Notes: generated from the sequence alone by a model not told the origin. Positions 2 through 14,032 are shown, counted from the stretch's first letter. The stretch is 64,000 nucleotides of DNA from Euryarchaeota archaeon UBA62 (GCA_002502095.1 DAPJ01000028.1:37387-101386), one strand, 5' to 3'. Made by a program: numbers and translations.

Positions 2-3000
2 GTAAGATCTACCGGGAGGTTATCAGGTACTTGGTCATTGGAAATAGACGGTTCACAACTTCCTTCGGGCTGGACCTGGGATGATGTTACGCCCGGAGGG
101 AGTAGTGGGATTCAGATAGCAACAGGTGATTCTTGGTCACCAGTAATCGAGATAGTCGCCCCCTCCTCGGCCCTAGGCTCGGATTCAGGATTCCTTGGCT
201 TGACGATGTCCCTAGATAGTGACTCCAACGTTAGTGTTTCATCTATACTTCCTATTGAGGCGAATAGGACTAGGGGATTATCAATTAGGGGCCCTGAGGG
301 CGCATCATACAGCTCTGGATATGGATTAATCGGAGATTCTGCTAGAGCATGGATAGTTGTGGAAAATATTGGGAATGCTGTGGAAAATCAAATCTCATTG
401 GATTGGGGGAATACGCTGTGGGGGAGTGATTTACGATTAATTGACAGTGATGGGGATGAGAGGTTTGCATTGGTTCTTGACCCGGGGGAGAGACTAGTTT
501 TGGAAGCCAACCTTGATGTTCCAGTTGTCGATGAAAATCAACAGACGGTATTAATTGGTGATCAAGTAGAGACGTCTTTGACGCTATGTGTGGATGGAGA
601 TGAGGGCTGTCAAACTGTAGATTTGACTTTCATTGCTTCAGGGGTAGTCAGTAGGAGTCATATCAGAAGTGTCCCTTCAACTGGCCTAGAATGGATAATA
701 CAAGCTGACCGTCCTACAGGTGAAGATTTACTATCATGGTCATTGTCATCTGCTGGAATGGCAAAAACTGGTTGGTCATGGACGGCATCGGGTGATTTAC
801 AGATAAATGGAGACAACCTTTCCATGGATGTTTCTAGCGGAACTGGAATGGGTTTTCTGTCTCTAAGTCTTCCGAGTAATGCGGCCCCTGCATATCACTA
901 CTTCGAAGATTCTAGTGAAGAGTCAACATCTCATTCTCTTAGATTATCAATAGAGATACTCCAAATATTCCGATCATCGATGATGATCTCATCGCCTAGT
1001 GAACAGCCGTTCCTTGTAGAGGTTGAAGATGAGTCCCTGGTAGTATTGAGGTTAGAAAATCCCGGAAATGGAGATGATTCATTCAATCTAGGCTATTCGT
1101 TAATACTAGATGAAAATATCACAGAAGATCCCGGAGTTGATGTCTCCTTTTCTAGAGATATGGTTTCTCTTTCAGCGGGTAGCCTCACGACTGTTCCTGT
1201 AAGTGTAACGCTCCCTGAGAATACCCCTGCCAGAGTCCCAATGAAGATTTCATTCTCAATGCAGTCGGAAGGAGATTCTACTATCCTATCCACGGTCGAA
1301 ATAGTATTTGAGGCTAGGCAGGACCATCAGTGGAATGTCTATCCATTCCTTTCTAGTGAGTCGGGGAATATAGATGCTGATGGGGAAACATTCCAAGCCA
1401 ATCCTGGAGAGTCTGTTTCATTGGACGTAATGGTGACAAATGTTGGAAATCTGGTGGATGAATTAACACTACTAACATCCGTGATTACCTCGCTTCAGAG
1501 TGGGGATTCATCAACGGAATGGATTTCTAGCGGGAGTGCTATTTCTAACTTAGGAGTGAATGAAACCGGGATGATGTCAGTCGATACTATCATTCCTCTT
1601 GACGCATGGAGTGGGTCCTCGGCAGAAGTAACTGTTACCGCTATAGCGCAAGGTCAAGAGATCACATCATTCTCTTTCTCGGTAGTCTCAGGACATGTTC
1701 CGTCTTGGAATGCAGTAATTGATCAAGCAAACTTGGAAGTTGCGACCCATGGATCAGAAATCACACTATCCGTATTACAGATGGGTAATTCTCCGAGTCG
1801 TCCTTACATCTCCATGTTTGTTTCGGGAGAGCAGGGATGGGAAATTGGTAATGTTTCGGACATGCCGATAATAAACCCAGGAGAAAGTGCTCCTCTATCG
1901 CTAAATGTAACTCCCCCTGAAAATGCCGTATACGGAAGGGCAGTTGAGTTGACTATAAGAATCAAAGAAGGAGATTCAAGCGGACTTTCAGAGATTGTGT
2001 TCCCACTGAGAGTTGCGGTAACACATGATTTCTCTTTGTCCGGACAAGGAGACTGGATTGTTAGCCGGGATGGGGGGTACCCTCTAGCATTTATCGAAAA
2101 TCAGGGGAATGCACCAAGCACCATTTCAATTCAGATACTCAGCCTGCCACTTGGTTGGGAGATCTCTGGTAATCAAAATGTGATATTGGGGGTTGGGGAG
2201 ATCTCTGGCGTTCCGATTGAGCTACTGCCAGATGAGAGCTGGGATGGAAATGTCAAGACAATTAGAATACTAGCTGAGGACTCTGAAGGCAATCAAAGAG
2301 AAATATCGATGGACACTAGGAAAGAGAGTCATTCATGGTCCTCTAGTCCGGTAATCATCTCAACTTCGGGCGATAGCTATATCTTGGAAATTCATGGGAC
2401 CAGTTCAGATAGTACAGTGATTGATTCCGCTGGTGGACCGCTCCCGTGGAGCGATGCGGGAGGATGGCTATGGGGCTCCTACACGGGAGGAAATGGAAGT
2501 CTGAATGTTAATCCATCTACAATACTCGAGTATAGATCTTGGGTTTCAGAACCGTCTACTAGACAGGGTAGTTGCTCCATAGGTGGAGATGTAGATGCCG
2601 TTGAAGCTAGTTGTACAATAATGAATGGGAGTGAAAAATTTGGTTACACCGTTATCCTATCAGATGACCGAGGCAATATGCTAGATTCAATTTCAGGATT
2701 GCTGGGACAGGGAGAATCCTCGGGGATGATCAATCTAAGTGCGGATGGATGGAGCCCAATGCCTGGAAGGAGTGAGCTGACAATTAGGGCCATTGATTCC
2801 AGAGGAGTCGAATTTTCATCTGATAGTAATACATTTGAAGTTAGAAGGACTGATTGGAATGTCGGATTGGTAGGATTGGAGATTATCGGTACTGGTCAAG
2901 AACAAGAGGTATCCATACTCACAAAGAGAGATAATCATCAGATTTTAGATGGTTCAGTTTGTACAATTACCATCCAAGCCGGAAACGCCTTCTCTGCAGA

Positions 3001-3514
3001 ATACATAGTCGATATGTCAGAATCCAGTGCCTTAGCTCCTAGGCCTGTCATCGATAGACCTGATGTCGCAGATGGAGTAGAGTTAGTAGCTACGATAAGT
3101 TGCGAATTCCCTTGGGACATTGATTCTGACCCTTCAGACGATGAAGCCAGAATTATTCTGTCGGGCTCAGGAGAGTCTGAAGGAGGCTTCAGTGACTCAA
3201 GTACTGCGATTGCATCGGCCAGCTTAGTAATTGGAATTTCTATTGCTTTCGCATGGATGGCTAAAAACTTCCGAGAGAGTAGGGAAATGATGGAGAGAAC
3301 TAGGATTGCAGTAGAGAAAAAGGCACTGGAGAAGAAGGCTAATATGGCTAAGAAGGAGGAGGCTCCGAATCAGAGATTAGTACAAGAAGAGAGTGTGGTC
3401 GACAATCTGCAAAATGTCCCAGAAGTTCCAACTGAAGGAGTATCAAATGATGTAGAAGATAGCCCAATGGATAGCTTTGAAGAGCGTCTTAATCGCCTAA
3501 GGTCTGACAAGTAG
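2..3514 (+). CDS. Large cell-surface protein (5' end cut by window edge) with CARDB/NEW3-like beta-sandwich repeats, C-terminal TM anchor and charged tail
   Basis: The frame is open from nt 2 (no stop upstream of the TTG at 38) and the listed N-terminus has no signal peptide, so the gene continues upstream. It has repeated V-x-N-x-G-N type motifs (VENIGNAVENQ, VTNVGNLVDE, IENQGNAPSTI, ENPGNGDDSF) and many N-x-S/T sequons. A hydrophobic helix AIASASLVIGISIAFAWMA is followed by a K/E-rich tail. Confidence 0.8.
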   Translation, partial: VRSTGRLSGTWSLEIDGSQLPSGWTWDDVTPGGSSGIQIATGDSWSPVIEIVAPSSALGSDSGFLGLTMSLDSDSNVSVSSILPIEANRTRGLSIRGPEGASYSSGYGLIGDSARAWIVVENIGNAVENQISLDWGNTLWGSDLRLIDSDGDERFALVLDPGERLVLEANLDVPVVDENQQTVLIGDQVETSLTLCVDGDEGCQTVDLTFIASGVVSRSHIRSVPSTGLEWIIQADRPTGEDLLSWSLSSAGMAKTGWSWTASGDLQINGDNLSMDVSSGTGMGFLSLSLPSNAAPAYHYFEDSSEESTSHSLRLSIEILQIFRSSMMISSPSEQPFLVEVEDESLVVLRLENPGNGDDSFNLGYSLILDENITEDPGVDVSFSRDMVSLSAGSLTTVPVSVTLPENTPARVPMKISFSMQSEGDSTILSTVEIVFEARQDHQWNVYPFLSSESGNIDADGETFQANPGESVSLDVMVTNVGNLVDELTLLTSVITSLQSGDSSTEWISSGSAISNLGVNETGMMSVDTIIPLDAWSGSSAEVTVTAIAQGQEITSFSFSVVSGHVPSWNAVIDQANLEVATHGSEITLSVLQMGNSPSRPYISMFVSGEQGWEIGNVSDMPIINPGESAPLSLNVTPPENAVYGRAVELTIRIKEGDSSGLSEIVFPLRVAVTHDFSLSGQGDWIVSRDGGYPLAFIENQGNAPSTISIQILSLPLGWEISGNQNVILGVGEISGVPIELLPDESWDGNVKTIRILAEDSEGNQREISMDTRKESHSWSSSPVIISTSGDSYILEIHGTSSDSTVIDSAGGPLPWSDAGGWLWGSYTGGNGSLNVNPSTILEYRSWVSEPSTRQGSCSIGGDVDAVEASCTIMNGSEKFGYTVILSDDRGNMLDSISGLLGQGESSGMINLSADGWSPMPGRSELTIRAIDSRGVEFSSDSNTFEVRRTDWNVGLVGLEIIGTGQEQEVSILTKRDNHQILDGSVCTITIQAGNAFSAEYIVDMSESSALAPRPVIDRPDVADGVELVATISCEFPWDIDSDPSDDEARIILSGSGESEGGFSDSSTAIASASLVIGISIAFAWMAKNFRESREMMERTRIAVEKKALEKKANMAKKEEAPNQRLVQEESVVDNLQNVPEVPTEGVSNDVEDSPMDSFEERLNRLRSDK

Positions 3515-4151: not shown

Positions 4152-5108
4152 CTAGAATTTTTCACCAGTTAGACGTTCGAACATTCCTGCATAAAGATCA
4201 GCGGTTTGATCGATGATTTTACTCGGAAGAGCTGGGATGGGAGGTTCTTCTGAACCTGCCTCTCTGGCTTCATAGAGTTGCTCATAGTGGCCGGTTGAGA
4301 GATAATGCTCCCTGACAAACTCCTTAGATAGAGACACTATATTTCCATTTTCATAATCATCAGCCGCCCACCACCTATCTTCGTCTAGAGTCCCGAATGA
4401 GTCAACTAGAACAGGTACTCGACCGGGGCCAAGGGCGAATTCTTTCTTTCCGTCAACATGTATAAGTCCCCTCTTGGATGCTTCAGTATGTATAATTTCG
4501 TCTATCTTAACAACGATATCAAGAATACTATCGAACTCCTCATCGGTTAAGTTAGAAATCTCTAATGCTTCTTTACGATCTAGTAACCTGTCGAATTTCT
4601 CAAATTTAGTGGAGACTTCCAGATATGGAGACGGTAATTTAACACCTTCATGTAATACAGTTCCGGGCTCGAATCCAAATTCCTCTGGCCCTACTTCGCC
4701 CCTGTCATACCTTCTCCAACCTCCACCTGCGAGGTAGTGTCTACAAATGACCTCAAGAGGAACGAAAACATTCTCCATATCGCGGGGAATCGCTCCAGGC
4801 TCTCTGATTACTTCGAACCTTCGCGCCAGAACCCTATCTGGAGCATTCATTTCGATAATGTGAGTTTCACATATTTCGGCTTCTTCAACGAGTTTGAACC
4901 AATGGCATGAAGTCCTGTTTAGGCTCTCTCCCTTTCTAGGGACCAAGCTTGGTATGATCTGATCGAAGACACTGATCTGATCCGTATACCTAAATTCTAT
5001 GATATCTGGATCATCCGTACTCCATACTTCCTTTACTTTGCCCTTGTATAGCATGTCTACCATGGTGCAAGGAGGGGAAAGATGATGATGAACATTACTG
5101 AAAGACAT
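4152..5108 (-). CDS. purC: Phosphoribosylaminoimidazole-succinocarboxamide (SAICAR) synthase, long form
   Basis: The N-terminal block MLYKGKVKEVW...FRYTDQISVFD...KGESLNRTSCHWF is typical of PurC. The ATG at 5108 lies 26-30 nt from a TATA-like CTATAT, which would fit a leaderless mRNA. An alternative internal start is MVDMLYKGK at 5063. Confidence 0.9.
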   Translation of the reverse strand: MSFSNVHHHLSPPCTMVDMLYKGKVKEVWSTDDPDIIEFRYTDQISVFDQIIPSLVPRKGESLNRTSCHWFKLVEEAEICETHIIEMNAPDRVLARRFEVIREPGAIPRDMENVFVPLEVICRHYLAGGGWRRYDRGEVGPEEFGFEPGTVLHEGVKLPSPYLEVSTKFEKFDRLLDRKEALEISNLTDEEFDSILDIVVKIDEIIHTEASKRGLIHVDGKKEFALGPGRVPVLVDSFGTLDEDRWWAADDYENGNIVSLSKEFVREHYLSTGHYEQLYEAREAGSEEPPIPALPSKIIDQTADLYAGMFERLTGEKF

Positions 5109-5131
5109 TCAGATTTTCGAGTACCGCCGGG

Positions 5132-5139
5132 ACTATATC
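5132..5139. promoter_or_regulatory. TATA-like element (ACTATATC) possibly shared by divergent purC and the ABC permease gene
   Basis: This is the only TATA-like string in the 61-nt divergent spacer. It lies about 26-30 nt from the purC ATG (5108, minus strand) and about 32-36 nt from the permease ATG (5170, plus strand). Confidence 0.3.
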
Positions 5140-5169
5140 CGAAGAACCTCGCCAAGCAATGGGGAGCGG

Positions 5170-7308
5170 ATGATTGAAACAATGAAATCTGAGGGTCGGA
5201 GAAGATATCCCTTTGCATTTCCAAGCTTTTTCTCGATCGTATTAATGTCATTACTAGTACTTTCCATCCCAGCTAATGCACAGGAGTACAGAAGTGGCTG
5301 GGACATTATTGACAGTGGCACCACAGAAGACCTCTATGCTGTAGAGTCACAAGGAAGTGAGATTTGGGCATTTGGAGAAAATGGGATAATGATAATGAGT
5401 TTAGATGGGGGACTGACTTGGGAAGTTAGCGAATCTCTAACATCATCTGATTTGACAATATCGAGCTCTGGCTATGGATCGTTCCTAACAGCTAGTAGTG
5501 ACGGTACAATTTTACTTAAGTCGGCCAATGATTCAGTATGGTCAGACATTACAAACGACTTCGGAAATGAGGGGATTCATGGTGCCTGCCTTACTGGTGT
5601 GTCTGAGTTGGTAATCGTTGGCGGAAATGGGACCATATGGACTTATGAGATGCAGGAGTGGACCAATCGTTCGGTTTCAGGATGGGATTTGTTAGACGTA
5701 TCTTTCTTGGATTCAGAAAGAGGAATTGCTGTCGGAGAACAGGGGACAATTCTATTCTCAGACGATGGCGGAGAATCCTGGGATTACAGAGATGCACCTT
5801 CAGAGGCTTCATCTTCAAGGATCACTGATATAGAGTTCTTCAGTGAAATTAGGGCATATGCTATTACAGACGAGGGAGGAGTCATCAAGTCTTCGAGAGA
5901 AATTAACACTGCAGTGGGATTTCTCTGGAATATGCAATATTTTGAGTCTGAGGGCAACTCAGATAATCTTGGAGAAAATCTAACATCGATAGAGATAGCA
6001 ACGACAAATAAATTTCTTCTTTCTGGCAAAGAGGGATACCTCTCTATGAGTAAAGACGGGGGCAATATAGTCACCAGACAGACCATACCCCTACATAATT
6101 CTACATCATTCAATGACATAACAATGATGGATAGTTTCAACGGTGTAGCAGTAGGCAGTAATGGATCCTTACTTCTGACGGAGAGATCTGGAGAGGACGA
6201 GCAGATTGGTTTTGAGGTTATGGACTTCTCAGAATTTGGAAACTTTGTAGACTACTCTAAGGGGATGTTGATTGATGGTTTGTTCGCTACAGTTAACATA
6301 GTAATGTTCGGAATTTTCCTCGGATTCTTCCTAGGTGTATCACTCTCAATGATGAAGACATCACCCACTACTTTGAAGGAAATTTCTCAGAAGAGAAGCC
6401 TAACAGTTGTAAGGGTCGCTGGAATCATCTTTACGGTTATTGGAGTATCCCTTCTGAGGCACCTAGTTCCCATAATTAGAAATCTAGGATTGGATGGTTG
6501 GGAATATATTTACGCCCCGATTGGAATCATTAACCCTGATGGAATAACAGGGGATCTACAATTCGAAAACTTCCTATTTCTGATACTAGGAATTAGTCTC
6601 TTACTTTTGGGAATACTCTTCGCTTCGGCGAATGGCGAGTATAAGAAATCCCATTTCAATATCATAGGCAGGGATATTATTTGGAATCCCTGGGGAGTCA
6701 GGCCTCTAAATTTCGTTGCAACTATTTATACAGATATTTTTAGAAATACTCCATTGATTGTACAGTTTTTATTCATACATTTCGGAGTCCAGATAGGTGC
6801 GTTAATCGGAGACCCTGGTGCAGAGATGTTAGAAGATTCAAGTAACTTTATTCTATCATTCTTGAGAGATGATATTCTTTCTAACAGGGCATGTGTTAGT
6901 GCTATTTTTGCGTTAGGACTGAACTCTGGAGCGTATCAATGTGAGACCATTAGAGGAGCTATCTCGGCTATACCTTCTGGACAGATGGAAGCGGGAAGAA
7001 GTATAGGTCTGAATTATATGCAGACAATGAGACTTGTAATAATGCCTCAAGCCATTAGGATATGCATTCCTCCGATGGGTAACGAGATGGTAAATCTAGT
7101 ACTAAACTCGTCACTTGCCATGGTTATAGGCTATTCCGAGCTTACTCGAAAGGCCAAGCTAATCAACGCTGTGACTTTCCAGGTATTCTGGTCTTATGGA
7201 ATGGTCTTAGTTTCCTACTTTATCGTTACATGGACACTAGCATTATTCCTAAGATACTTGGAGAATAAAACTAGGATTCCTGGACTTGGAATATCCGGAG
7301 GAAGCTGA
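5170..7308 (+). CDS. Fusion protein: signal/anchor + BNR/Ycf48-like beta-propeller + polar amino-acid ABC transporter permease (HisM/GlnP family)
   Basis: The N-terminal third carries BNR-type motifs SLDGGLTWEV, SDDGGESWDY and SKDGGNIV. The C-terminal half has the permease signature FRNTPLIVQFLFIHFG and the EAA loop EAGRSIGLNYMQTMRLVIMPQAIR, with multiple TM helices. Confidence 0.85.
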   Translation: MIETMKSEGRRRYPFAFPSFFSIVLMSLLVLSIPANAQEYRSGWDIIDSGTTEDLYAVESQGSEIWAFGENGIMIMSLDGGLTWEVSESLTSSDLTISSSGYGSFLTASSDGTILLKSANDSVWSDITNDFGNEGIHGACLTGVSELVIVGGNGTIWTYEMQEWTNRSVSGWDLLDVSFLDSERGIAVGEQGTILFSDDGGESWDYRDAPSEASSSRITDIEFFSEIRAYAITDEGGVIKSSREINTAVGFLWNMQYFESEGNSDNLGENLTSIEIATTNKFLLSGKEGYLSMSKDGGNIVTRQTIPLHNSTSFNDITMMDSFNGVAVGSNGSLLLTERSGEDEQIGFEVMDFSEFGNFVDYSKGMLIDGLFATVNIVMFGIFLGFFLGVSLSMMKTSPTTLKEISQKRSLTVVRVAGIIFTVIGVSLLRHLVPIIRNLGLDGWEYIYAPIGIINPDGITGDLQFENFLFLILGISLLLLGILFASANGEYKKSHFNIIGRDIIWNPWGVRPLNFVATIYTDIFRNTPLIVQFLFIHFGVQIGALIGDPGAEMLEDSSNFILSFLRDDILSNRACVSAIFALGLNSGAYQCETIRGAISAIPSGQMEAGRSIGLNYMQTMRLVIMPQAIRICIPPMGNEMVNLVLNSSLAMVIGYSELTRKAKLINAVTFQVFWSYGMVLVSYFIVTWTLALFLRYLENKTRIPGLGISGGS

Positions 7309-8049
7309 ATGAGCAATGTACTAACAATTGTAGATATGCACAAGACATATGCTGGTGGAGTTCATGCAGTACGAGGGGTTTCATTTGATGTTAATCAGGG
7401 CGAATCAGTAGCCATAATTGGTTCGTCGGGAAGTGGCAAGTCTACGGTATTAAGATGTATTAACAGGCTAATTGAGCCGACTGAGGGAGAAGTAAGACTT
7501 CGTGGGAACCTGATTAATACTCCCTCAGCAGATATTAATGATGTAAGATCTAGAATTGGGATGGTCTTCCAGTCATTCGAGCTATTTTCTCACCTTAGAG
7601 TCATTGATAATATCACTCTTGGACTAAGGCATGTTAAGAAAATGAGCAAAAGAGAAGCTGAGGCTGAGGCTCTTGAGGTTCTGGAAAAGGTAGACATGCT
7701 AGACAGAAAGGATGCTTTTCCGGGAAATCTATCTGGAGGGCAGAAGCAACGTGTCGCTATTGCTAGAGCGCTTGCAATGAAGCCTGAAGTAATGTTATTT
7801 GATGAGCCCACGAGTGCTTTGGATCCAGAATTGATTGGCTCGGTTCTGAAAACTATCAGAGGACTGGCCGATGAAGGCATGACAATGATAGTCGTAACAC
7901 ACGAGATAGGCTTCGCTAGAGACGTGGCAGACAGAGTGATCTACATGGACAAGGGGCTAATAGCGGAATCTGGGAAGTCATCAATCATAGATAATCCAAA
8001 AACCGAACGTCTGAAGAGGTTCTTGTCTTCCATCACAGAGGAAGACTAG
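7309..8049 (+). CDS. Polar amino-acid ABC transporter ATP-binding protein (GlnQ/HisP type)
   Basis: Walker [10 protein letters not shown], signature [15 protein letters not shown], Walker [12 protein letters not shown] and H-loop VTHE are present. The ATG directly follows the permease stop. Confidence 0.93.
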
Positions 8050-9410
8050 ATCATTCCCTGTGAGGTCATAGCTTCTGCGACCTTTAGGAATCCAGCAATA
8101 TTCGCTCCAGCAACATAGTTACCAGGCATTCCGAATCTTTCAGCAGTTTCATATGCATTCTTGTGGATATCGACCATTATGGCATCTAGCCTAGAGTCGA
8201 CCTCTTCACGAGTCCATGATAATCTGAGACTGTTCTGACTCATTTCAAGTCCAGAAGTGGCGACTCCCCCCGCGTTAGATGCCTTTCCTGGGGCAAAAAG
8301 AATTCCATTCTTGAGGAATACTTCGACAGCTTCTGGAGTGCAAGGCATATTCGCCCCTTCTGCAACAGCGATTACCTTGTTTGCGACCAGCATTTCCGCT
8401 TCAGAGCCGTTCAGCTCATTTTGAGTGGCACAAGGAAGAGCAACGTCAACATTCACCCCCCATAGGCCATTAGGAGTTGGCTCGGGCTCAGAAGGGTTAA
8501 ACTGGACGCCATCGAAATTATCTGCATACTCAGAAATTCTTCCTCTTCGGTTATTCTTTAGATCCATAATCCAATCTAACTTCTCTCGATCGATTCCTGA
8601 AGGATCATGAATCCATCCGCTGGAGTCAGACATTGTAACCGGCTTACCTCCAAGATCGAGAACCTTCTCACAAGCAAACTGCGCTACATTTCCAGAGCCT
8701 GAAATTGACACTGTTGCTCCTTCGAAAGATCTTCCAGTCGTCGCCAGCATCTCACGTGCGAAGTAAACTAATCCATATCCAGTAGCTTCTGGCCTAATTA
8801 GGGAGCCTCCGTAAGATCTTCCCTTTCCGGTTAAAACGCCCGTGAACTCGTTGGCTAGTTTCTTGTACATTCCAAACATGTAACCTATCTCTCGTCCTCC
8901 GACACCAATATCTCCAGCTGGCACATCTAAATCAGCACCGATATGCCTCCATAATTCCATCATAAAGGATTGACAGAATCTCATTACTTCAGAGTCCGAC
9001 TTACCCTTTGGATTGAAATCAGAGCCTCCCTTTCCTCCTCCCATAGGCAATCCAGTAAGGCTATTTTTGAAGACCTGCTCAAAGGCTAAGAATTTCAATA
9101 TGGACTGATTTACACTTGGGTGAAACCTAAGGCCACCTTTGTAAGGTCCGATTGAGCTACTCATTTGAATTCTGTACCCCCTGTTTACATTGAGGTTTCC
9201 ATTATCATCATACCAAGGGACTCTGAACTGAATAATTCTTTCAGCCTCGACCATCGCCTCTATCACTGGCATATATTCGGGATATTCCTCAATTACTGGA
9301 GAAAGGCTCTCGAGAACCTCTTCTACTGCCTGATGAAACTCAGGTTGGTTCGGGTCTCTTGCAATTACGCTGTCGTATACTGATTTAATTCTGCTATCCA
9401 TAGCACTCAC
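8046..9410 (-). CDS. gdhA: Glutamate dehydrogenase (hexameric ~450 aa type)
   Basis: Contains the [19 protein letters not shown] active-site block, the GDH dinucleotide-binding region GSGNVAQ, and full-length similarity to GdhA. Confidence 0.93.
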
Positions 9411-9507: not shown

Positions 9508-10824
9508 TTAAGAGAATAGGATGTTCTCGGATACTTGTGAAACCTTGCCTTCATATCCAGGCAGGGTCATGACATAGAATACGGCCTGACTAACCTGTCT
9601 ATTTCTGAGTGCCTCAGCGATTGGAGTGTGTTCCCTCAACCATCTAGTTCTCCCATCATCTCCAATAATTCTAATATCCACCTGAGACATCCTTGGCTCA
9701 GCGAGTAAGAGCTTGATATTTGGTACGTCTATGGCAACGTAACCAGGTTCCAGTCCAGATCTACTAGCTATCTCGTCTTCAAATTCTCTCCTCTTATTGG
9801 AATTAGAAGCAAGTTCTGCCAGTAAATTGATGTCTTCCTCACTTAGGTCTTGCCTTCTTCTGGATAAACATACTTTCAGCAGTTGTCTATACTTGAGTCT
9901 CCTGATCATATCTCTAGCGAAGTCACCCGCCTCATGCATTACTTGCCAAATCTCTGCATCCACTCTCCTCTGTAAATCAAAAGAGTCGGGAATATTTTCT
10001 TCACTTCGCTCTACTGCCCTCGACAGCATTACCTCTGTAACTCTGGTGACCCGATGGAAATATACTGCACTGTACATCAAACCTCTGGCTACAAGCATTC
10101 CTTCTAGCGCTGGGAGGCCTCCTTCTTCCACTGAGATATCGCCTCCATGTCTTTCTAGGCACATTATTAGCCTTCTATGATCTATTACACCATGCTTTAC
10201 GCCAGTAAAGTGTGAGTCCCTAAGTAGGTAGTCAATTTGATCGCAGTCTACAGGGCCATGAATCAGGTGAGCCATGGTCTTGTCGTTTTGAACAAAATTT
10301 GTTCTCCCTTCGGACCAAGAGAGGAGATTTCTCTCTGATCCCCTGGCATCTGGACCTCTGATTAGGCCAGCGACCTCCTTAGGATCTATGCCATGATTCT
10401 CAAGAATCTCAGGAACGCTAATTCTATTCTGAATTGAAGATTCTTCGCCATCCCTCAATACATCATAATCGCCAACAATTATTCCCTCTGTAATTGACAT
10501 ATGGTCTAAACCTCCCCTCTCATGTAAGATATGCTCCAAAGTATGAGAATATGGTCCATGACCTACATCATGCAGTAGCGCAGCTACGCTAACAGTATCA
10601 GTCTCATAACTATCGAGTCCGATAGACTCTGCCATCATACCAGAAACATGTGATACACCGAGGGAGTGCTCAAAACGGGTATGGTGCGCTCCTGGGAATA
10701 CTAAATGTGCTAGTCCTAGTTGTTTGATGTGGCTTAACTTATTCATCTCAGGGGTTTTGAGAAGCTCCTCTCTGACTCCGTCAATCCTGAACTGTCCATG
10801 GATTGCGTCATTGATTGTTTTCAT
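9508..10824 (-). CDS. HD-domain phosphohydrolase (COG1078 / SAMHD1-like dNTP triphosphohydrolase family)
   Basis: Contains INDAIHGQFRI...HHTRFEHSLGVSHV...LLHDVGHGPYSH. The start is set at ATG 10824 (MKTINDAIHG), as in the family. The ORF track extends to a TTG at 10896. Confidence 0.82.
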   Translation of the reverse strand: MKTINDAIHGQFRIDGVREELLKTPEMNKLSHIKQLGLAHLVFPGAHHTRFEHSLGVSHVSGMMAESIGLDSYETDTVSVAALLHDVGHGPYSHTLEHILHERGGLDHMSITEGIIVGDYDVLRDGEESSIQNRISVPEILENHGIDPKEVAGLIRGPDARGSERNLLSWSEGRTNFVQNDKTMAHLIHGPVDCDQIDYLLRDSHFTGVKHGVIDHRRLIMCLERHGGDISVEEGGLPALEGMLVARGLMYSAVYFHRVTRVTEVMLSRAVERSEENIPDSFDLQRRVDAEIWQVMHEAGDFARDMIRRLKYRQLLKVCLSRRRQDLSEEDINLLAELASNSNKRREFEDEIASRSGLEPGYVAIDVPNIKLLLAEPRMSQVDIRIIGDDGRTRWLREHTPIAEALRNRQVSQAVFYVMTLPGYEGKVSQVSENILFS

Positions 10825-10888
10825 TGCAAGCCCGGTGTATGCGAGAGTGTGCTCCCCATTAATGGAACTGATGTGGTATGTTACAAAT

Positions 10889-10910
10889 AATTGCAATTCA
10901 ATTGCATTTC
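10889..10910. promoter_or_regulatory. Tandem 11-nt direct repeat AATTGCAATTC / AATTGCATTTC (candidate operator) in the divergent HD / RHH promoter region
   Basis: Two adjacent 11-nt units match at 10 of 11 positions, giving one helical turn of spacing. The first contains the palindrome AATTGCAATT, and a degenerate third unit (ATTTGAGATAC) follows. They lie about 57-78 nt upstream of the RHH gene ATG. Confidence 0.3.
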
Positions 10911-10966
10911 ATTTGAGATACAATTAATACCCCCCTCCCCTTTCGACGGTCTAGAAGGTAGCCAGT

Positions 10967-11335
10967 ATGTCCGGTCACAGCCCAATGGTTTCGCTGAGAA
11001 TACCCGAAGATCATCTTCTGGAGCTAGATCAATTAGTAGGGCTGGATGGAATGAGAAATCGTTCCGATGTTATTCGAACGGCGGTTAGAAAATACCTCAC
11101 TGATGAGCATCACATTAGTGGAGACAGGGTAGAAGTTAACCTGGGACCAGATCTAAGTTCTAGGATGGAAGATTTCTGTAAGTTGCATGGTGAAAAACCT
11201 GACTCAGTTTTGAGGCAGGCGGCCAGGGAACATATCAGGAACGTTACTCTTGAAGATACTAAGGTTACAGATTTAATTAACTCTAGAATGAATGAACTTA
11301 GGGAAAGAAGTAATGATGATTCAAACGCTATATGA
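10967..11335 (+). CDS. CopG/NikR-type ribbon-helix-helix DNA-binding protein with two tandem RHH modules
   Basis: Module 1 is MVSLRIPEDHLLELDQLVGLDGMRNRSDVIRTAVRKYL. Module 2 is RVEVNLGPDLSSRMEDFCKLHGEKPDSVLRQAAREHIRNV. Both follow the beta-strand, helix, turn, helix pattern. Confidence 0.75.
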   Translation: MSGHSPMVSLRIPEDHLLELDQLVGLDGMRNRSDVIRTAVRKYLTDEHHISGDRVEVNLGPDLSSRMEDFCKLHGEKPDSVLRQAAREHIRNVTLEDTKVTDLINSRMNELRERSNDDSNAI

Positions 11336-11378
11336 GGTGGCGAGGGAAATGTGTGAGGATGGGATGCACGGAACCACC

Positions 11379-11404
11379 GCGGGGGGGCCTGATGGCCCCC
11401 TCGC
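11379..11404 (+). other. GC-rich stem-loop (11 bp including one G-U pair, 4-nt loop)
   Basis: GCGGGGGGGCC tgat GGCCCCCTCGC pairs fully by hand. It lies 44 nt downstream of the RHH gene stop, inside a 185-nt non-coding gap. Confidence 0.5.
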
Positions 11405-11520
11405 ACCCAAATATAACGGTCTAAGTGGACTCAGAGATAGGGCCATGAAAGCTCTAGGAAACGGTTTCTAGTAATCAATGTCTACCCAATCTTCTTGGCC
11501 GTCCTTTTCACGGTAAAGGT

Positions 11521-13518
11521 ATGAGTGAGCATGCCGTGCGTAATTCTGGAATATTTTTCGCTCATAAAGTAGCCAGAAAATCTCAGTTCGAGATGATTTC
11601 AGATGGAATTGATACTCTTACCGAGGGAGGATTCCTCCTAGCAGCCGCCCCGACTGGAATCGGAAAAACAGCGGCTGCACTAGCTTCAGCTCTCCAAGCC
11701 TCATTTGATAATAATATGGCTACTGAAAAACCTAAGATTATTTTCATGACGGGGAGGCAGTCTCAACATAGAATCGTAGTCGATACTGTTCGTCAGATTA
11801 ACTCTAGAATACCAGATGGGATTCGAAAAATATCACTGGTAGATATTATCGGCAGGGAAGGGATGTGCGAATACGTAGATCGTTCTACTGGAAAATGTAG
11901 TTGCGAAGGGGACGTAGTTGAGGAAACTCGTAAGGCTAGACGCTCAGACCTGAGAAAGAAGTTACTTGAACAGCCTCGACATGTTGACTGGAATGTAAAA
12001 TATGGCAGATCTAGAAAGGTTTGCTCTTGGGCCACTGCCAGAATGGCTGCAGGACACGCTGACATTCTTGTATGCGACTACAATCATGTTTTCGTAGAAG
12101 GGGTGAGAGAGGCATCCCTACCTGCGATGGGCATTGAATTGGAAAACTCGATTCTAATTGTAGATGAGGCTCACAACCTACCGGACAGGATTAGGAGTGG
12201 ATTGGAGAGGAGGGTTACCGATGATGTTTTCAGAAGGGCGCTGGATAATATAGAGGAATATAAGGGAAATTTAGAGAAGATTGATTCTGAACTAGACTTA
12301 CCCGAATCAGGACAGCTTCGAGATGTGAGGCAACTGGAAATGCAGGTTAAGTCGCTCCAAGCCCCTATGATCAATTGGTTGGAAAAAAAGAAGAAGGAGA
12401 ACGAGGCAACCAAAGGAGATGATATGAGAGTATCTACTCAAGATTTCCTAGATGTATTCTCCAAGGCAACTGAAGGAGTACTTGAGGATGATGAGGGTGA
12501 CGATATATCTAGAATTTTGTTGATGGTTAGGCGATTATTCTCAGTGACAATAGACGAGGAAGAAGATTCGGATGACGAGGAGCAGAATGATTGTACCAGA
12601 ATAGCTGAGATGCTAGAAATTTGTATAAGGTTCAGAAACAGTTCCGCTTTGTCTTTGGTATTTGATGAGCTTCTCGATATCCCACGTATTACATGCCACC
12701 TTCTTGACCCGAGTGTAGTGGGAAAATCGGTGTTTGAGAGTTGTCGTGGTTCGATTCTGATGTCTGGGACGCTCTTCCCTCCTATGATGTATTCAGAGAT
12801 ACTAGGTATACCTGCGAAGAGGACTGTATCTAAGATATATTCATCGGACTTTCCAGTTGAAAATAGGCCGGTGCTAATCGCAAGTGATGTTACTAGTAAG
12901 TTCACTGAGCGTGAAAGAAGTATCCCGATAATAGGGCAACATGTCAGAGCAGTTATTGAGAATACAAATGGGAATGTAGCTATCTTCGCACCCAGCTATT
13001 CTATGATGGAAAGAATACATTCAGATTTCGTAAATTTAGGATGGAGTAGTAAAAAAATTCTCAAGGAAGAGCAAAGAATGAGTAAAGGGGGCGTAGAATC
13101 TATGATTTCAAAGCTCTATGAACAGAAAGAAATGGGAGGAGCTGTAATCTTTGGAGTTCTTAATGGTAAGCTTTCAGAGGGTGTTGACTATTCAGATAAC
13201 GTCCTGGATTCATTAGTTTGTATAGGACTTCCACTTCCTCCTCCTAGTTCCAAACAGGATTCATTGATAGATTACTTTACTAAGAAATTTGATAGAAATA
13301 GAGCTTGGAAGTATGCCAGCCTTCAACCTGCCGTTAATAGTGTTCTTCAAGCCCTAGGAAGACCGATAAGGAAGAAGGAAGATAGAGCAATAATTGTATT
13401 ATTAGAGAGTCGAATATTAGAGCGCAGGGTGAGTGATTGTATGCCTCCAATGATGAAGATCCAAACCTCAAGTCCCTCCAGAACTGCAGAGAGAGTTAAG
13501 GCATTCTTTGAGATCTAG
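11521..13518 (+). CDS. xpd: XPD/Rad3-family 5'-3' DNA helicase with Fe-S cluster domain
   Basis: Contains Walker A APTGIGKT, four Cys (GMCEY...KCSCEG...KVCSW...LVCDYNHVF), DEAHNL, and the C-terminal helicase motifs QALGRPIR. Confidence 0.88.
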   Translation: MSEHAVRNSGIFFAHKVARKSQFEMISDGIDTLTEGGFLLAAAPTGIGKTAAALASALQASFDNNMATEKPKIIFMTGRQSQHRIVVDTVRQINSRIPDGIRKISLVDIIGREGMCEYVDRSTGKCSCEGDVVEETRKARRSDLRKKLLEQPRHVDWNVKYGRSRKVCSWATARMAAGHADILVCDYNHVFVEGVREASLPAMGIELENSILIVDEAHNLPDRIRSGLERRVTDDVFRRALDNIEEYKGNLEKIDSELDLPESGQLRDVRQLEMQVKSLQAPMINWLEKKKKENEATKGDDMRVSTQDFLDVFSKATEGVLEDDEGDDISRILLMVRRLFSVTIDEEEDSDDEEQNDCTRIAEMLEICIRFRNSSALSLVFDELLDIPRITCHLLDPSVVGKSVFESCRGSILMSGTLFPPMMYSEILGIPAKRTVSKIYSSDFPVENRPVLIASDVTSKFTERERSIPIIGQHVRAVIENTNGNVAIFAPSYSMMERIHSDFVNLGWSSKKILKEEQRMSKGGVESMISKLYEQKEMGGAVIFGVLNGKLSEGVDYSDNVLDSLVCIGLPLPPPSSKQDSLIDYFTKKFDRNRAWKYASLQPAVNSVLQALGRPIRKKEDRAIIVLLESRILERRVSDCMPPMMKIQTSSPSRTAERVKAFFEI

Positions 13519-14032
13519 TGAGCAATGGGTTCATGCCAGACCGTCTCTTCCGAAGGTCATGGAATGGGTCAAAGTTTCGATAGGGGAAAAGGATAGTGAC
13601 GTTCCTAAGATGCCTACACTTTCAGGATCATACGATGGCTTGGACTCTGATGCCTCGTCCTCGCATCAAAAATTCTTTACAAATATTCCTCACATGACAG
13701 AAGTGATTGAAAATCATGAAAGGTCTACAGGAAAAGTATTGCTTCCCGGGAATGACTCAATGGGCGGTTATGAATCGATTAAATCATTTGAAGAGAGAGT
13801 CACTGTAATCGGTGCTGAGTCTCTGGGGGATGGATTACAGATACCTCTATCTAAATCTGTCAGAGAAGAGGTGCTTCTTCAAGAGGCAACTACTGAATCA
13901 GGGCAGTTAATCAGATTGGTTGCTCCGGAAAAATTTGGAGGCAGGGTAGAGTCATTCAAGCTACCAACTGGAACTACCTTGAATGAGGCTTTCTGGGATG
14001 GAGATAGGTTGAAAATCACCTTCAACTACTAA
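13508..14032 (+). CDS. Hypothetical protein; the C-terminal ~80 aa may be an HSP20/p23-like beta-sandwich
   Basis: The TTG start overlaps the XPD end, and an alternative ATG at 13559 gives MEWVKVS. The C-terminus RVESFKLPTGTTLNEAFWDGDRLKITF resembles the alpha-crystallin domain end (F-x-R-x-x-x-LP...A-x-x-x-nG-x-L-x-I). This is a weak call. Confidence 0.5.
   Translation: MRSSEQWVHARPSLPKVMEWVKVSIGEKDSDVPKMPTLSGSYDGLDSDASSSHQKFFTNIPHMTEVIENHERSTGKVLLPGNDSMGGYESIKSFEERVTVIGAESLGDGLQIPLSKSVREEVLLQEATTESGQLIRLVAPEKFGGRVESFKLPTGTTLNEAFWDGDRLKITFNY

What the first reader, a model, noticed from the sequence alone, without database searches (positions are those of the whole stretch)
5170..8049. Amino-acid ABC importer whose permease carries an extracytoplasmic BNR/Ycf48-like beta-propeller where a substrate-binding domain would be, and no binding-protein gene
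The 712-aa ORF starts with a signal/anchor (FPSFFSIVLMSLLVLSIPANAQ). About 330 aa follow with S-x-D-G-G-x-T/S-W motifs (SLDGGLTWEV, SDDGGESWDY, SKDGGNIV) typical of BNR/Ycf48-type propellers. Only then comes the HisM/GlnP-type permease core (FRNTPLIVQFLF, with EAA loop EAGRSIGLNYMQTMRLVIMPQAIR). The GlnQ-type ATPase gene starts immediately after the permease stop. No periplasmic-binding-protein gene flanks the pair, since divergent purC lies on one side and convergent gdhA on the other. In GlnPQ-type importers of Gram-positive bacteria the solute-binding domains are fused to exactly this N-terminal, outside-facing end of the permease. The propeller therefore occupies the receptor position. In addition, a ~110-aa insertion with two extra hydrophobic helices (LTVVRVAGIIFTVIGVSLL, FLFLILGISLLLLGILFA) splits the permease between TM1 and the conserved FRNTPL block. 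This may be a non-canonical receptor for an ABC importer, or a coupling of transport to some surface process.
Basis: partly seen in the sequence, partly recalled or inferred. Interest (0 to 1): 0.65.

Follow-up and report, generated by a model that had tools for sequence, protein, structure and literature searches.

The report
Amino-acid importer permease carrying a beta-propeller
Abundant ocean archaea (Marine Group II) carry a real, conserved amino-acid-type ABC importer whose membrane subunit bears an outward-facing seven-bladed propeller, but a sister lineage adds a normal binding-protein gene next to it, so the propeller is probably an accessory part and not a replacement receptor.

Summary
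ORF 5170-7308 encodes a signal peptide, a Ycf48-like seven-bladed propeller (AF2 pLDDT about 90; best PDB fold match Ycf48), a length-invariant linker and a polar-amino-acid (PAAT) permease core. A 110-aa, two-helix insertion splits that core between TM1 and TM2. A GlnQ-like ATPase gene follows at once.

The fusion is not a frameshift. It recurs in at least 178 GTDB species; the best 80 are Poseidoniales or unclassified archaeal MAGs, all in purC<->permease->ATPase synteny. No SBP_bac_3 gene lies in the 64-kb window or in the window clade's loci.

The reading "the propeller replaces the receptor" is only partly supported. In the sister clade (16 of 85 loci), a membrane-anchored, circularly permuted SBP_bac_3 gene sits between purC and the fusion gene, and every copy examined is linked to it. 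The propeller keeps its conserved residues there. A published genus-O1 MAG also carries a separate aapJ-permease-permease-ATPase operon.

My best reading (about 0.4) is a PAAT importer with a fixed accessory propeller that uses a conventional binding protein, in cis or in trans. The propeller as a new kind of receptor remains open (about 0.27).

This is a new variant of a known kind, and I found no paper that discusses it.

The parts
5170..5283 (+). N-terminal signal peptide or anchor (aa 1-38: basic n-region RRR, hydrophobic core, ANA|Q motif resembling a signal-peptidase site)
   Evidence: Hydropathy and charge count. The sequence varies across the family but a signal-like segment is always present. 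Cleavage is inferred, not shown.
5287..6189 (+). Extracytoplasmic seven-bladed Ycf48-like BNR beta-propeller (aa 40-340)
   Evidence: Pfam PF14870 at 56.3 bits. AF2 pLDDT blocks mostly 85-93 with seven four-strand blades. Foldseek best matches are Ycf48 structures 5oj3, 2xbg and 5ojr, E = 4e-16. The family profile hits Ycf48 chains at E = 1e-22.
6190..6234 (+). Acidic propeller-to-TM1 linker of invariant length (aa 341-355, GEDExxGFxVxDF)
   Evidence: No gaps across 80 orthologues. G341, G347 and F348 are at least 95% conserved.
6235..6363 (+). Canonical permease N-terminus and TM1 (aa 356-398)
   Evidence: Aligns with positions 6-38 of the E. coli PAAT permease profile once the insertion is removed, and with ArtQ 5-46. 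42% of positions are at least 95% conserved.
6364..6693 (+). Lineage-specific insertion in the TM1-TM2 cytoplasmic loop (aa 399-508): two extra TM helices (409-430, 465-486) flanking an outside loop with the conserved motif L-x-L-D/N-G-W-E-x-I-Y-x-P-x-G
   Evidence: In-silico deletion test, hydropathy and charges, conserved L439, L441, G443, E445, P450, G452. Its length varies between lineages from about 105 to over 300 aa.
6694..7305 (+). Permease core TM2-TM5 with the FRNTPL block, the EAA loop (aa about 601-630, nt 6970-7059) and an invariant C-terminal tail RIPGLGISGG
   Evidence: Pfam PF00528, TIGR01726 above cut-off, ArtQ 4YMS at E = 1.6e-29. 65% of positions are at least 95% conserved.
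7309..8049 (+). GlnQ/HisP-type ABC ATPase, start codon directly after the permease stop
   Evidence: PF00005 at 134.6 bits. GlnQ model at 284.5 bits, below the equivalog cut-off of 379. Walker A (nt 7420-7443), Q-loop, LSGGQ (7729-7743), Walker B (7789-7806), D-loop and H-loop are all present. The gene follows the fusion gene wherever the locus extends past its 3' end.
5109..5169 (.). 61-bp purC/permease divergent spacer: the exact place where the sister clade carries the SBP_bac_3 gene, and too short here to hold a remnant
4152..5108 (-). purC (SAICAR synthetase), conserved divergent neighbour; context only
   Evidence: PF01259; synteny wherever the locus extends upstream of the fusion gene.
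8046..9410 (-). gdhA (glutamate dehydrogenase), convergent neighbour in about half the loci; context only, a weak hint at glutamate or glutamine metabolism
   Evidence: PF00208 and PF02812; synteny.

Best explanation
The locus encodes a type I ABC importer of the polar-amino-acid (PAAT, HisQMP/GlnPQ/ArtQN) family from a Marine Group II archaeon (Poseidoniales). The purC tree and the record titles of related loci place it in the Thalassarchaeaceae (MGIIb).

**Shown**
- One permease gene and one ATPase gene are present, which implies a homodimeric TMD2-NBD2 translocator as in Art(QN)2.
- The permease begins with a signal peptide and an outward-facing Ycf48-like seven-bladed propeller.
- The propeller joins TM1 through a conserved linker of invariant length.
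- A two-helix hairpin is inserted between TM1 and TM2. It puts a second conserved loop on the outside.

**Inferred**
- The propeller and the hairpin loop form a fixed extracytoplasmic "crown" on the translocator. It acts as an accessory domain, for example a docking platform or gate for a membrane-anchored binding protein. This is comparable in role to the MalF P2 loop, which holds MalE, or to Ycf48, which sits on lumenal loops of D1.
- Substrate recognition and ATPase triggering are still done by a conventional SBP_bac_3 receptor. In the sister clade that receptor is encoded next door. In the window's lineage it would be supplied in trans, most plausibly by the AapJ-type binding protein reported for most MGIIb subclades.
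- The substrate is a polar amino acid or a related small solute. It cannot be named.
For: **Canonical, strongly constrained translocator**
- The core and ATPase are canonical.
- About 65% of core positions are at least 95% conserved across 80 species.

**Dedicated binding protein in the sister clade**
- 16 of 85 loci carry a signal-peptide + SBP_bac_3 + C-terminal TM-anchor gene between purC and the fusion gene.
- The family is small, 81 clusters.
- All three additional members examined also lie beside the fusion gene.
- These loci form one clade in the purC tree, sister to the window clade.
- So this translocator can work with an SBP_bac_3 receptor, and the propeller is kept alongside it with the same conserved residues.

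**Signs of a fixed module**
- The linker never varies in length and is conserved.
- The outside loop of the inserted hairpin is conserved.
- Both fit a rigidly packed module better than a freely swinging tethered receptor.

**Closest relatives dock on or team up with membrane proteins**
- Ycf48, the closest solved relative, is a membrane-tethered propeller that binds the extracytoplasmic loops and tail of a membrane protein.
- Ycf48-like COG4447 proteins are co-fit with an RND transporter in bacteria.

**Binding proteins available in trans**
- A published MGIIb genus-O1 MAG has the fusion orthologue and, about 70 kb away, aapJ with two permeases and an ATPase.
- L-amino-acid binding proteins are reported for most MGIIb subclades.
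Against: - About 80% of sampled species, including the window and its whole clade, have no binding-protein gene in cis. None lies within -5 kb/+57 kb here or within +/-10 kb in loci L006-L015.
- The most parsimonious history is a single late gain of the neighbour gene. The ancestral system therefore worked without a dedicated one.
- AapJ has its own complete translocator, so sharing it is an assumption.
- No contact between the propeller and the TMD or a binding protein could be modelled. The TMD pLDDT was below 50 over much of its length, and the binding-protein model failed.
- Whether the window's own genome has any SBP_bac_3 gene was not testable here.
Confidence: 0.4

Rival explanations
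1. The propeller is itself the substrate receptor. It captures an amino acid, or the free carboxy-terminus of a peptide, and delivers it to the translocation pore. It would replace the Venus-flytrap binding protein. Where the neighbouring SBP_bac_3 is present, it would only add a second specificity, as the two binding domains of GlnPQ do.
For: - The propeller is fused at the N-terminal, outside-facing end where GlnPQ-type importers carry their binding domains.
- No binding-protein gene is present in cis in most lineages, and the ancestral locus probably had none.
- The system stays under strong purifying selection without one.
- Invariant Y206, R207, R228 and E259 could bind a carboxylate or amine.
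- Ycf48 contacts the last residues of a C-terminal tail.
Against: - No type I importer is known to use a receptor without the binding-protein fold. These importers sense the open-to-closed motion of a bilobed protein, which a rigid propeller lacks (established knowledge of MalFGK2, HisQMP2 and GlnPQ).
- Propeller and a dedicated binding protein coexist in the sister clade with no relaxation of propeller conservation.
- The invariant-length, conserved linker suggests a fixed rather than mobile domain.
- No ligand pocket could be demonstrated.
Confidence: 0.27
2. The propeller is a built-in Ycf48-like chaperone, lid or regulator. It docks on the outer loops of its own TMD dimer (the inserted hairpin loop and the acidic TM2-TM3 loop). 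There it assists assembly or stability of the unusually elaborated membrane domain, or it gates access to the pore. It has no role in ligand or receptor binding.
For: - Ycf48 does this for D1/D2, binding lumenal loops and acidic residues.
- The propeller, the linker and the hairpin loop are co-conserved novelties of the same family.
- The outside loops are acidic, and the propeller has two invariant arginines.
Against: - The six-arginine patch of Ycf48 is not recognisably kept. Only two arginines are at least 95% conserved, and the alignments to Ycf48 are blade-shifted.
- The propeller diverges much faster (about 40-50% identity between clades) than the loops it would have to grip.
- A covalently attached, permanent assembly factor has no precedent.
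Confidence: 0.15
3. The propeller ties the importer to a surface process. It would bind extracellular polymers, particles, the S-layer or secreted peptidases, so that uptake sits next to the extracellular protein degradation for which Marine Group II is known.
For: - The closest non-fusion relatives of the propeller are repeats in giant multi-propeller and T9SS-sorted surface proteins.
- The locus lies beside large surface-protein genes.
- The fusion gene shows allele replacement between close relatives, as surface-exposed genes often do.
- MGII are reported to be degraders of high-molecular-weight protein.
Against: - The evidence is purely contextual.
- The adjacent surface proteins contain no Ycf48-like domains.
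- This reading does not explain the conserved linker and hairpin loop.
Confidence: 0.1
4. The fusion is an artefact: a frameshift or assembly error joined a propeller gene to a permease gene.
For: None found.
Against: - The same uninterrupted ORF occurs in 272 protein clusters and 178 GTDB species from many independent assemblies.
- The junction is gap-free and conserved.
Confidence: 0.01

Closest known systems
GlnPQ of Lactococcus lactis and other PAAT importers with binding domains fused to the permease N-terminus
   Same: - The ABC family is the same.
- A signal peptide is followed by an extracytoplasmic domain fused in front of TM1 of a homodimeric permease.
- A GlnQ-type ATPase gene lies directly downstream.
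   Different: - The fused domain is a seven-bladed BNR propeller, not a bilobed SBP_bac_3 domain.
- The permease also has a two-helix insertion between TM1 and TM2.
- The linker is conserved and its length is fixed.
Art(QN)2 amino-acid importer (PDB 4YMS) and E. coli GlnP/HisQM/ArtQM
   Same: - The five-TM core, the FRNTPL-type TM2 block and the EAA loop align end to end once the insertion is removed.
- The single permease gene suggests a homodimer, as in ArtQ.
   Different: - Those permeases are about 220-240 aa long, have no extracytoplasmic domain and no insertion, and have a separate binding protein encoded in the operon.
Ycf48/HCF136, photosystem II assembly factor (PDB 2XBG, 5OJ3, 8AM5)
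   Same: - It is the best sequence and fold match.
- It is a seven-bladed BNR propeller, held at the outer or lumenal face of a membrane, that acts on a polytopic membrane protein.
   Different: - Sequence identity is about 15-19%.
- The NCBIfam equivalog score is 56.6 against a cut-off of 326.
- The six-arginine patch is not recognisably conserved.
- The host is a non-photosynthetic archaeon.
- The domain is covalently fused to a transporter, whereas Ycf48 is a lipoprotein.
MalF P2 periplasmic domain of the maltose importer MalFGK2
   Same: This is a functional analogy only: a large extra extracytoplasmic domain of a type I importer TMD that holds the binding protein (established knowledge).
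   Different: - The fold is different (Ig-like).
- The position is different (a loop between TM3 and TM4).
- The ABC subfamily is different.
- No homology is claimed.
Bacterial COG4447 Ycf48-like BNR proteins encoded with RND (COG1033) transporters, DUF1302 and DUF1329
   Same: A Ycf48-like propeller is genetically and phenotypically coupled to a membrane transporter in non-photosynthetic prokaryotes.
   Different: - There it is a separate protein, not a fusion.
- The partner is an exporter of a different superfamily.
- The proposed role is envelope-component export.

Membership tests
PAAT-family type I ABC importer (TC 3.A.1.3; HisQMP2/GlnPQ/ArtQN) | Permease with the BPD_transp_1 fold, HEQRo 3-TM signature and cytoplasmic EAA loop | tested here: met
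   PF00528 at 56.1 bits against a cut-off of 26.4. TIGR01726 at 48.3 against 42.2. ArtQ 4YMS at E = 1.6e-29. End-to-end profile alignment after removing the insertion.
PAAT-family type I ABC importer (TC 3.A.1.3; HisQMP2/GlnPQ/ArtQN) | Cognate GlnQ/HisP-type ATPase with all ABC motifs | tested here: met
   The adjacent gene at 7309-8049 has Walker A and B, Q-loop, LSGGQ, D-loop and H-loop.
PAAT-family type I ABC importer (TC 3.A.1.3; HisQMP2/GlnPQ/ArtQN) | SBP_bac_3 receptor, separate or fused | tested here: inconclusive
   None is present in the 64-kb window or in the window-clade loci. One is present beside the orthologue in the sister clade. The rest of the window's genome could not be searched.
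PAAT-family type I ABC importer (TC 3.A.1.3; HisQMP2/GlnPQ/ArtQN) | Assignment to a substrate-specific equivalog (GlnP, TcyL, EhuC, HisM and others) | tested here: not met
   The best score is 130.5 bits against a cut-off of 300. The substrate is not assignable.
Binding-domain-fused importers (GlnPQ type) | Signal peptide followed by an extracytoplasmic domain fused N-terminal to TM1 | tested here: met
   Hydropathy and positive-inside analysis.
Binding-domain-fused importers (GlnPQ type) | The fused domain has the bilobed periplasmic-binding-protein fold | tested here: not met
   The domain is a seven-bladed propeller. There is no PF00497 hit in the protein.
Ycf48/HCF136 photosystem II assembly factors | Seven-bladed BNR propeller fold | tested here: met
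   AF2 gives seven blades with pLDDT about 90. Foldseek matches Ycf48 at E = 4e-16, TM 0.71-0.75.
Ycf48/HCF136 photosystem II assembly factors | Conserved six-arginine patch that binds D1 | tested here: inconclusive
   Only R207 and R228 are at least 95% conserved in the family. Profile alignments to Ycf48 are blade-shifted, so positions cannot be equated. The patch is defined.
Ycf48/HCF136 photosystem II assembly factors | Equivalog-level sequence score and occurrence in an oxygenic phototroph with D1 | tested here: not met
   NF010237 scores 56.6 against a cut-off of 326. The host is a Marine Group II archaeon. Absence of photosystem II there is established knowledge, not tested here.

The most novel reading that the evidence does not exclude
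The Ycf48-like propeller is a genuine ABC-importer receptor without the binding-protein fold. It would capture amino acids or peptide C-termini and feed a type I translocator, and this would be the ancestral mode of the system. That would be a new class of extracytoplasmic receptor for ABC import, found in one of the most abundant archaeal groups of the surface ocean. The circularly permuted SBP_bac_3 neighbour in one genus would then be a later add-on.
Probability: 0.25. Interest if true: 0.85.

Novelty: new variant of a known kind. Interest (0 to 1): 0.55.

Why it matters
Type I ABC importers are thought to depend without exception on bilobed binding proteins. Here a conserved family in a globally abundant, uncultured archaeal order puts a beta-propeller at the receptor position, and most lineages have no binding-protein gene in cis. 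This gives a concrete, cloneable test case for two questions: can another fold serve as receptor, and how do accessory outer domains organise membrane-anchored binding proteins in cells without a periplasm?

It also matters for ocean carbon and nitrogen budgets. Annotation pipelines label this gene either "Ycf48-like protein" or "polar amino acid permease". Its substrate and its contribution to amino-acid uptake by Marine Group II are unknown.

Two by-products are of interest to protein-evolution and population-genomics work:
- A natural circular permutation of the SBP_bac_3 fold.
- Replacement of the permease allele between close relatives.

Tried and rejected
1. **Exact look-up of the window's protein.** It is not on record, so the window could not be annotated through precomputed Pfam tables.
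2. **AF2 of the full protein.** Only the propeller is confident. Much of the TMD is below pLDDT 50, so nothing can be said about propeller-TMD packing. My strand/loop bookkeeping gave no clear single patch and I do not rely on it.
3. **AF2 of the neighbouring binding protein.** With 19 sequences the mean pLDDT was 41, so no fold search was run. The circular permutation rests on sequence alignments only.
4. **MAFFT alignment of the TMD with E. coli permeases.** It placed helix 465-486 on TM1, which would imply an N-terminal extension. I rejected this after the profile test with the insertion deleted.
5. **Mapping the Ycf48 arginine patch.** The alignments are blade-shifted and ambiguous.
6. **NJ tree of the fusion protein.** It suggested a patchy, ancestral distribution of the binding-protein neighbour. 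I rejected this in favour of the purC tree, because the fusion gene is exchanged between lineages.
7. **Literature searches.** No paper discussing a propeller/permease fusion was found. Only automatic annotations in a supplementary table turned up.
8. **Large neighbouring surface proteins.** They were checked for Ycf48-like domains and have none.
9. **Glycosidase or sialidase reading of the propeller.** Not pursued. The fold is seven-bladed and Ycf48-like, and the only hint is a weak GH33 hit in another group's table.
Full report
**1. What is in the sequence**

*Gene layout*
- ORF 5170-7308 (+) encodes 712 aa. The next ORF starts at 7309 and encodes 246 aa.
- purC lies at 4152-5108 (-), divergent, behind a 61-bp spacer.
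- gdhA lies at 8046-9410 (-), convergent. Its end overlaps the ATPase end by 4 nt.

*Domains of the 712-aa protein*
- Pfam finds PSII_BNR/Ycf48 (56.3 bits, cut-off 27) and BPD_transp_1 (56.1 bits, cut-off 26.4) in the same protein.
- The downstream protein is a complete GlnQ/HisP-type ABC ATPase. Walker A and B, Q-loop, LSGGQ, D-loop and H-loop are all present.
- The N-terminus is a Sec-type signal: RRR, a hydrophobic core, then ANA|Q.
- Two canonical Asp-boxes and one degenerate Asp-box are present.

*Propeller fold*
- AlphaFold2 with a 34-member family alignment predicts residues 40-340 as seven four-stranded blades, with pLDDT blocks mostly 85-93.
- Foldseek against the PDB ranks Ycf48 structures first (5OJ3, 2XBG, 5OJR, 8AM5; E = 4e-16 to 5e-14, TM 0.71-0.75). 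Generic WD40 propellers follow.
- Sequence searches agree. A single sequence reaches E = 5e-10 against Ycf48 chains, and the family profile reaches E = 1e-22.

*Permease core*
- The core matches ArtQ of the Art(QN)2 importer (4YMS, E = 1.6e-29).
- It also matches TcyL, GlnP, EhuC and HisM models, always far below their equivalog cut-offs.
- The PAAT family is therefore secure. The substrate is not.

**2. The insertion is real**
- A global MAFFT alignment suggested that helix 465-486 might be the canonical TM1. That would make the extra helices an N-terminal extension.
- A profile test contradicts this:
  - With residues 399-508 deleted in silico, the TMD aligns from position 6 to 219 of a 227-position E. 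coli GlnP/HisQM/ArtQM profile at 164 bits.
  - A construct starting at residue 450 aligns only from profile position 39, at 148 bits. Helix 465-486 is left unaligned.
- The 110-aa segment is therefore an insertion in the short cytoplasmic TM1-TM2 loop.
- Its two helices go in-out-in and preserve the canonical topology. The charge distribution fits.
- The outside loop between the two helices carries a family-wide motif: L439, L441, G443, E445, P450 and G452 are at least 95% conserved.
- The rest of the insertion varies in length between lineages. Whole proteins range from 682 to 939 aa.

**3. Not an artefact, and who has it**
- The same two-domain architecture appears in all full-length hits among 272 protein clusters. 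The names given by sources are "YCF48-related protein", "ABC transporter permease subunit" or a double JGI name.
- A scan of one genome per GTDB species found 178 species with a relative.
- The best 80 loci are all labelled Poseidoniales, Marine Group II, Thalassarchaeaceae, or are unclassified euryarchaeal MAGs.
- Wherever the held sequence reaches that far, the order purC<- ->fusion->ATPase is kept.
- The junction region (residues 341-398) has no gap in 80 sequences.
- The window's clade is sister to a clade that includes genomes named Thalassarchaeum. The organism is therefore an MGIIb archaeon.

**4. The key new evidence: a binding-protein gene beside the orthologue in the sister clade**

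I built a profile from E. coli GlnH, HisJ, ArtI and ArtJ. With it I searched every six-frame ORF of the window and of 85 related loci, 1.54 Mb in total.

*Result*
- Nothing in the window matched.
- 14 loci gave a hit, always an ORF of about 325 aa lying between purC and the fusion gene and divergent from the fusion gene.
- A profile made from those hits raised the number to 16 loci and still found nothing in the window.

*Nature of the neighbour protein*
- It has a signal peptide and a C-terminal TM anchor.
- It passes the Pfam SBP_bac_3 gathering score (40.6 against 26.4).
- It hits solved amino-acid-binding proteins (AncQR 4ZV1, Thermus 3VV5).
- The two halves of the fold are in swapped order, a circular permutation. 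Residues about 42-152 match profile positions 137-246, and residues about 193-296 match positions 30-124.

*Linkage and history*
- The family is small, 81 clusters, all at least 54% identical to the query.
- Three divergent members that I looked up are again next to the fusion gene.
- On a tree of the host marker purC, the 16 loci form one clade with three nested losses (L020, L030, L050). That clade is the sister of the window's clade.
- The simplest history is one gain in that genus-level clade. The ancestral locus, like the window, would have had none.
- A tree of the fusion protein itself looked patchier. It is unreliable because the fusion gene has been exchanged between lineages:
  - L019 and L028 share 95% (purC) and 96% (gdhA) identity but only 51% in the fusion protein.
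  - The L019 core is closer to the window's core (81%) than to L028's (70%).

**5. Other binding proteins in these genomes**
- The supplementary gene table of Damashek et al. 2021 (PMC9723583) lists the following for the genus-O1 MAG SIMO Bin 19-2:
  - The orthologue of this gene. Prokka calls it "Ycf48-like protein" and KEGG assigns K02029. It sits next to a K02028 ATPase, gdhA and purC.
  - About 70 kb away on the same contig, aapJ (SBP_bac_3) followed by two large permeases and aapP.
- In the first samples listed there, aapJ reaches about 40-50 CPM and the fusion gene about 0.03 CPM.
- Tully 2019 reports L-amino-acid binding proteins in all MGIIb subclades except the two basal ones.
- Rinke et al. 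infer that the ancestor of genera N1 and O gained an amino-acid transporter.
- No paper I could find discusses the propeller fusion itself.

**6. What it most likely is**

*Shown*
- A canonical, strongly constrained PAAT translocator and ATPase. About 65% of core positions are at least 95% conserved.
- An outward-facing Ycf48-like propeller. It evolves faster, at 38-47% identity between the clades compared with the window, yet keeps a set of invariant residues: W44, the blade glycines, Y206, R207, R228 and E259.
- A conserved linker of invariant length.
- A conserved outside loop in the inserted hairpin.

*Inferred*
- Propeller and hairpin loop form a fixed outer module of the translocator.
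- A dedicated SBP_bac_3 protein was recruited next to this translocator in one clade without any loss or relaxation of the propeller. The propeller and a binding protein are therefore not redundant, and the translocator can evidently use a conventional receptor.
- The nearest characterised relative of the propeller docks on the outer loops and tail of a membrane protein. It does not bind a small ligand.
- My preferred reading, at about 0.4, is an accessory docking or gating domain on an importer that still uses a binding protein. That protein is encoded in cis in the sister clade. In the window's lineage it would be supplied in trans, plausibly an AapJ-type protein.

- In its favour: the fusion position, the absence of a cis binding-protein gene in about 80% of species, and the probably binding-protein-less ancestral locus.
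- Against it: the coexistence argument, the rigidity of propellers, and the lack of any precedent.

*Lesser rivals*
- A built-in Ycf48-like lid or assembly aid (0.15).
- A tether to surface polymers or peptidases (0.1).
- An artefact is excluded.

**7. Comparison with known systems and novelty**
- The system works like, and is a member of, the PAAT type I importers. The core and ATPase criteria are met. The receptor criterion is unresolved for this genome. Substrate-level equivalogs are not met.
- It resembles GlnPQ-type fused importers in topology but fails their defining feature, a bilobed fused domain.
- The propeller belongs to the Ycf48-like BNR superfamily by fold. It is not a Ycf48 orthologue:
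  - The equivalog score is 56.6 against 326.
  - The arginine patch is not recognisable.
  - The host is non-photosynthetic.
- I rate it a new variant of a known kind. The architecture is catalogued by automatic annotation but, as far as my searches reach, undescribed and unexplained.

**8. Limits**
- I could not search the rest of the window's genome for binding proteins.
- I could not model the TMD dimer or any complex.
- I could not map conservation onto the propeller in 3D.
- The binding-protein model failed.
- The probabilities above are judgements, not computed values.

Noticed in passing
L019:8866-9843 (-), and the same position in L017, L018, L025, L026, L028, L033, L035, L036, L038-L040, L043, L049, L054, L061; proteins P0268-P0348: A small archaeal family of membrane-anchored SBP_bac_3 proteins (81 clusters) has the two halves of the fold in swapped order, an apparent natural circular permutation. 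Every copy examined lies beside the propeller-permease gene. The arginine that usually binds the alpha-carboxylate did not look conserved on reading the alignment by eye; this was not tested.
   Followed up: partly
L019 versus L028 (fusion gene at about 10001-12300 in each): The two genomes have 95% identical purC and 96% identical gdhA, but their fusion proteins are only 51% identical (propeller 44%, core 70%). The L019 core is closer to the window's core (81%). The permease allele appears to have been replaced by recombination or transfer inside a conserved locus. The ATPase (83%) and the binding protein (81%) are intermediate.
   Followed up: partly
Alignment A1 columns about 480-900; proteins P0058-P0064, P0070, P0092 (838-939 aa): The TM1-TM2 insertion expands in some lineages from about 105 to over 300 aa with several additional predicted TM helices. 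Some of these proteins carry a precomputed PF25852 hit. The role of this variable membrane module is unknown.
   Followed up: no
window 7270-7305 (aa 701-712): The cytoplasmic C-terminal tail R-I-P-G-L-G-(I/M)-(S/T/G)-G-G is almost invariant across the family and is absent from E. coli PAAT permeases. It may be a contact with the ATPase.
   Followed up: no
proteins P0121-P0127 and others: The closest non-fusion relatives of the propeller are giant proteins (up to 6596 aa) made of many tandem Ycf48-like propellers; P0121 has 20 PSII_BNR stretches. Others are T9SS-sorted bacterial surface proteins. Their organisms of origin were not determined.
   Followed up: partly
window 14029-23013 (-) and 23083-26028 (-); also 38-3514 (+): These are very large, acidic, probably surface-exposed proteins of 2994, 981 and 1158 aa. 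They carry transglutaminase-core, Big_3_5, MG2-like and NPCBM_assoc/Ig-like hits. The 1158-aa protein and the following 208-aa protein are conserved synteny partners upstream of purC.
   Followed up: partly
window 8046-8049: The convergent ATPase and gdhA genes overlap by 4 nt at their 3' ends. gdhA follows the ATPase in about half of all related loci, so there is no room for separate terminators.
   Followed up: no
PMC9723583, supplementary file 4, SIMO Bin 19-2 genes 91-94: The separate aapJ operon of an MGIIb genome has unusually large permeases (about 800 and 577 aa, against about 390 in bacteria). One of them is mislabelled by Prokka as photosystem II protein PsbT. Their extra regions were not examined.
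   Followed up: no
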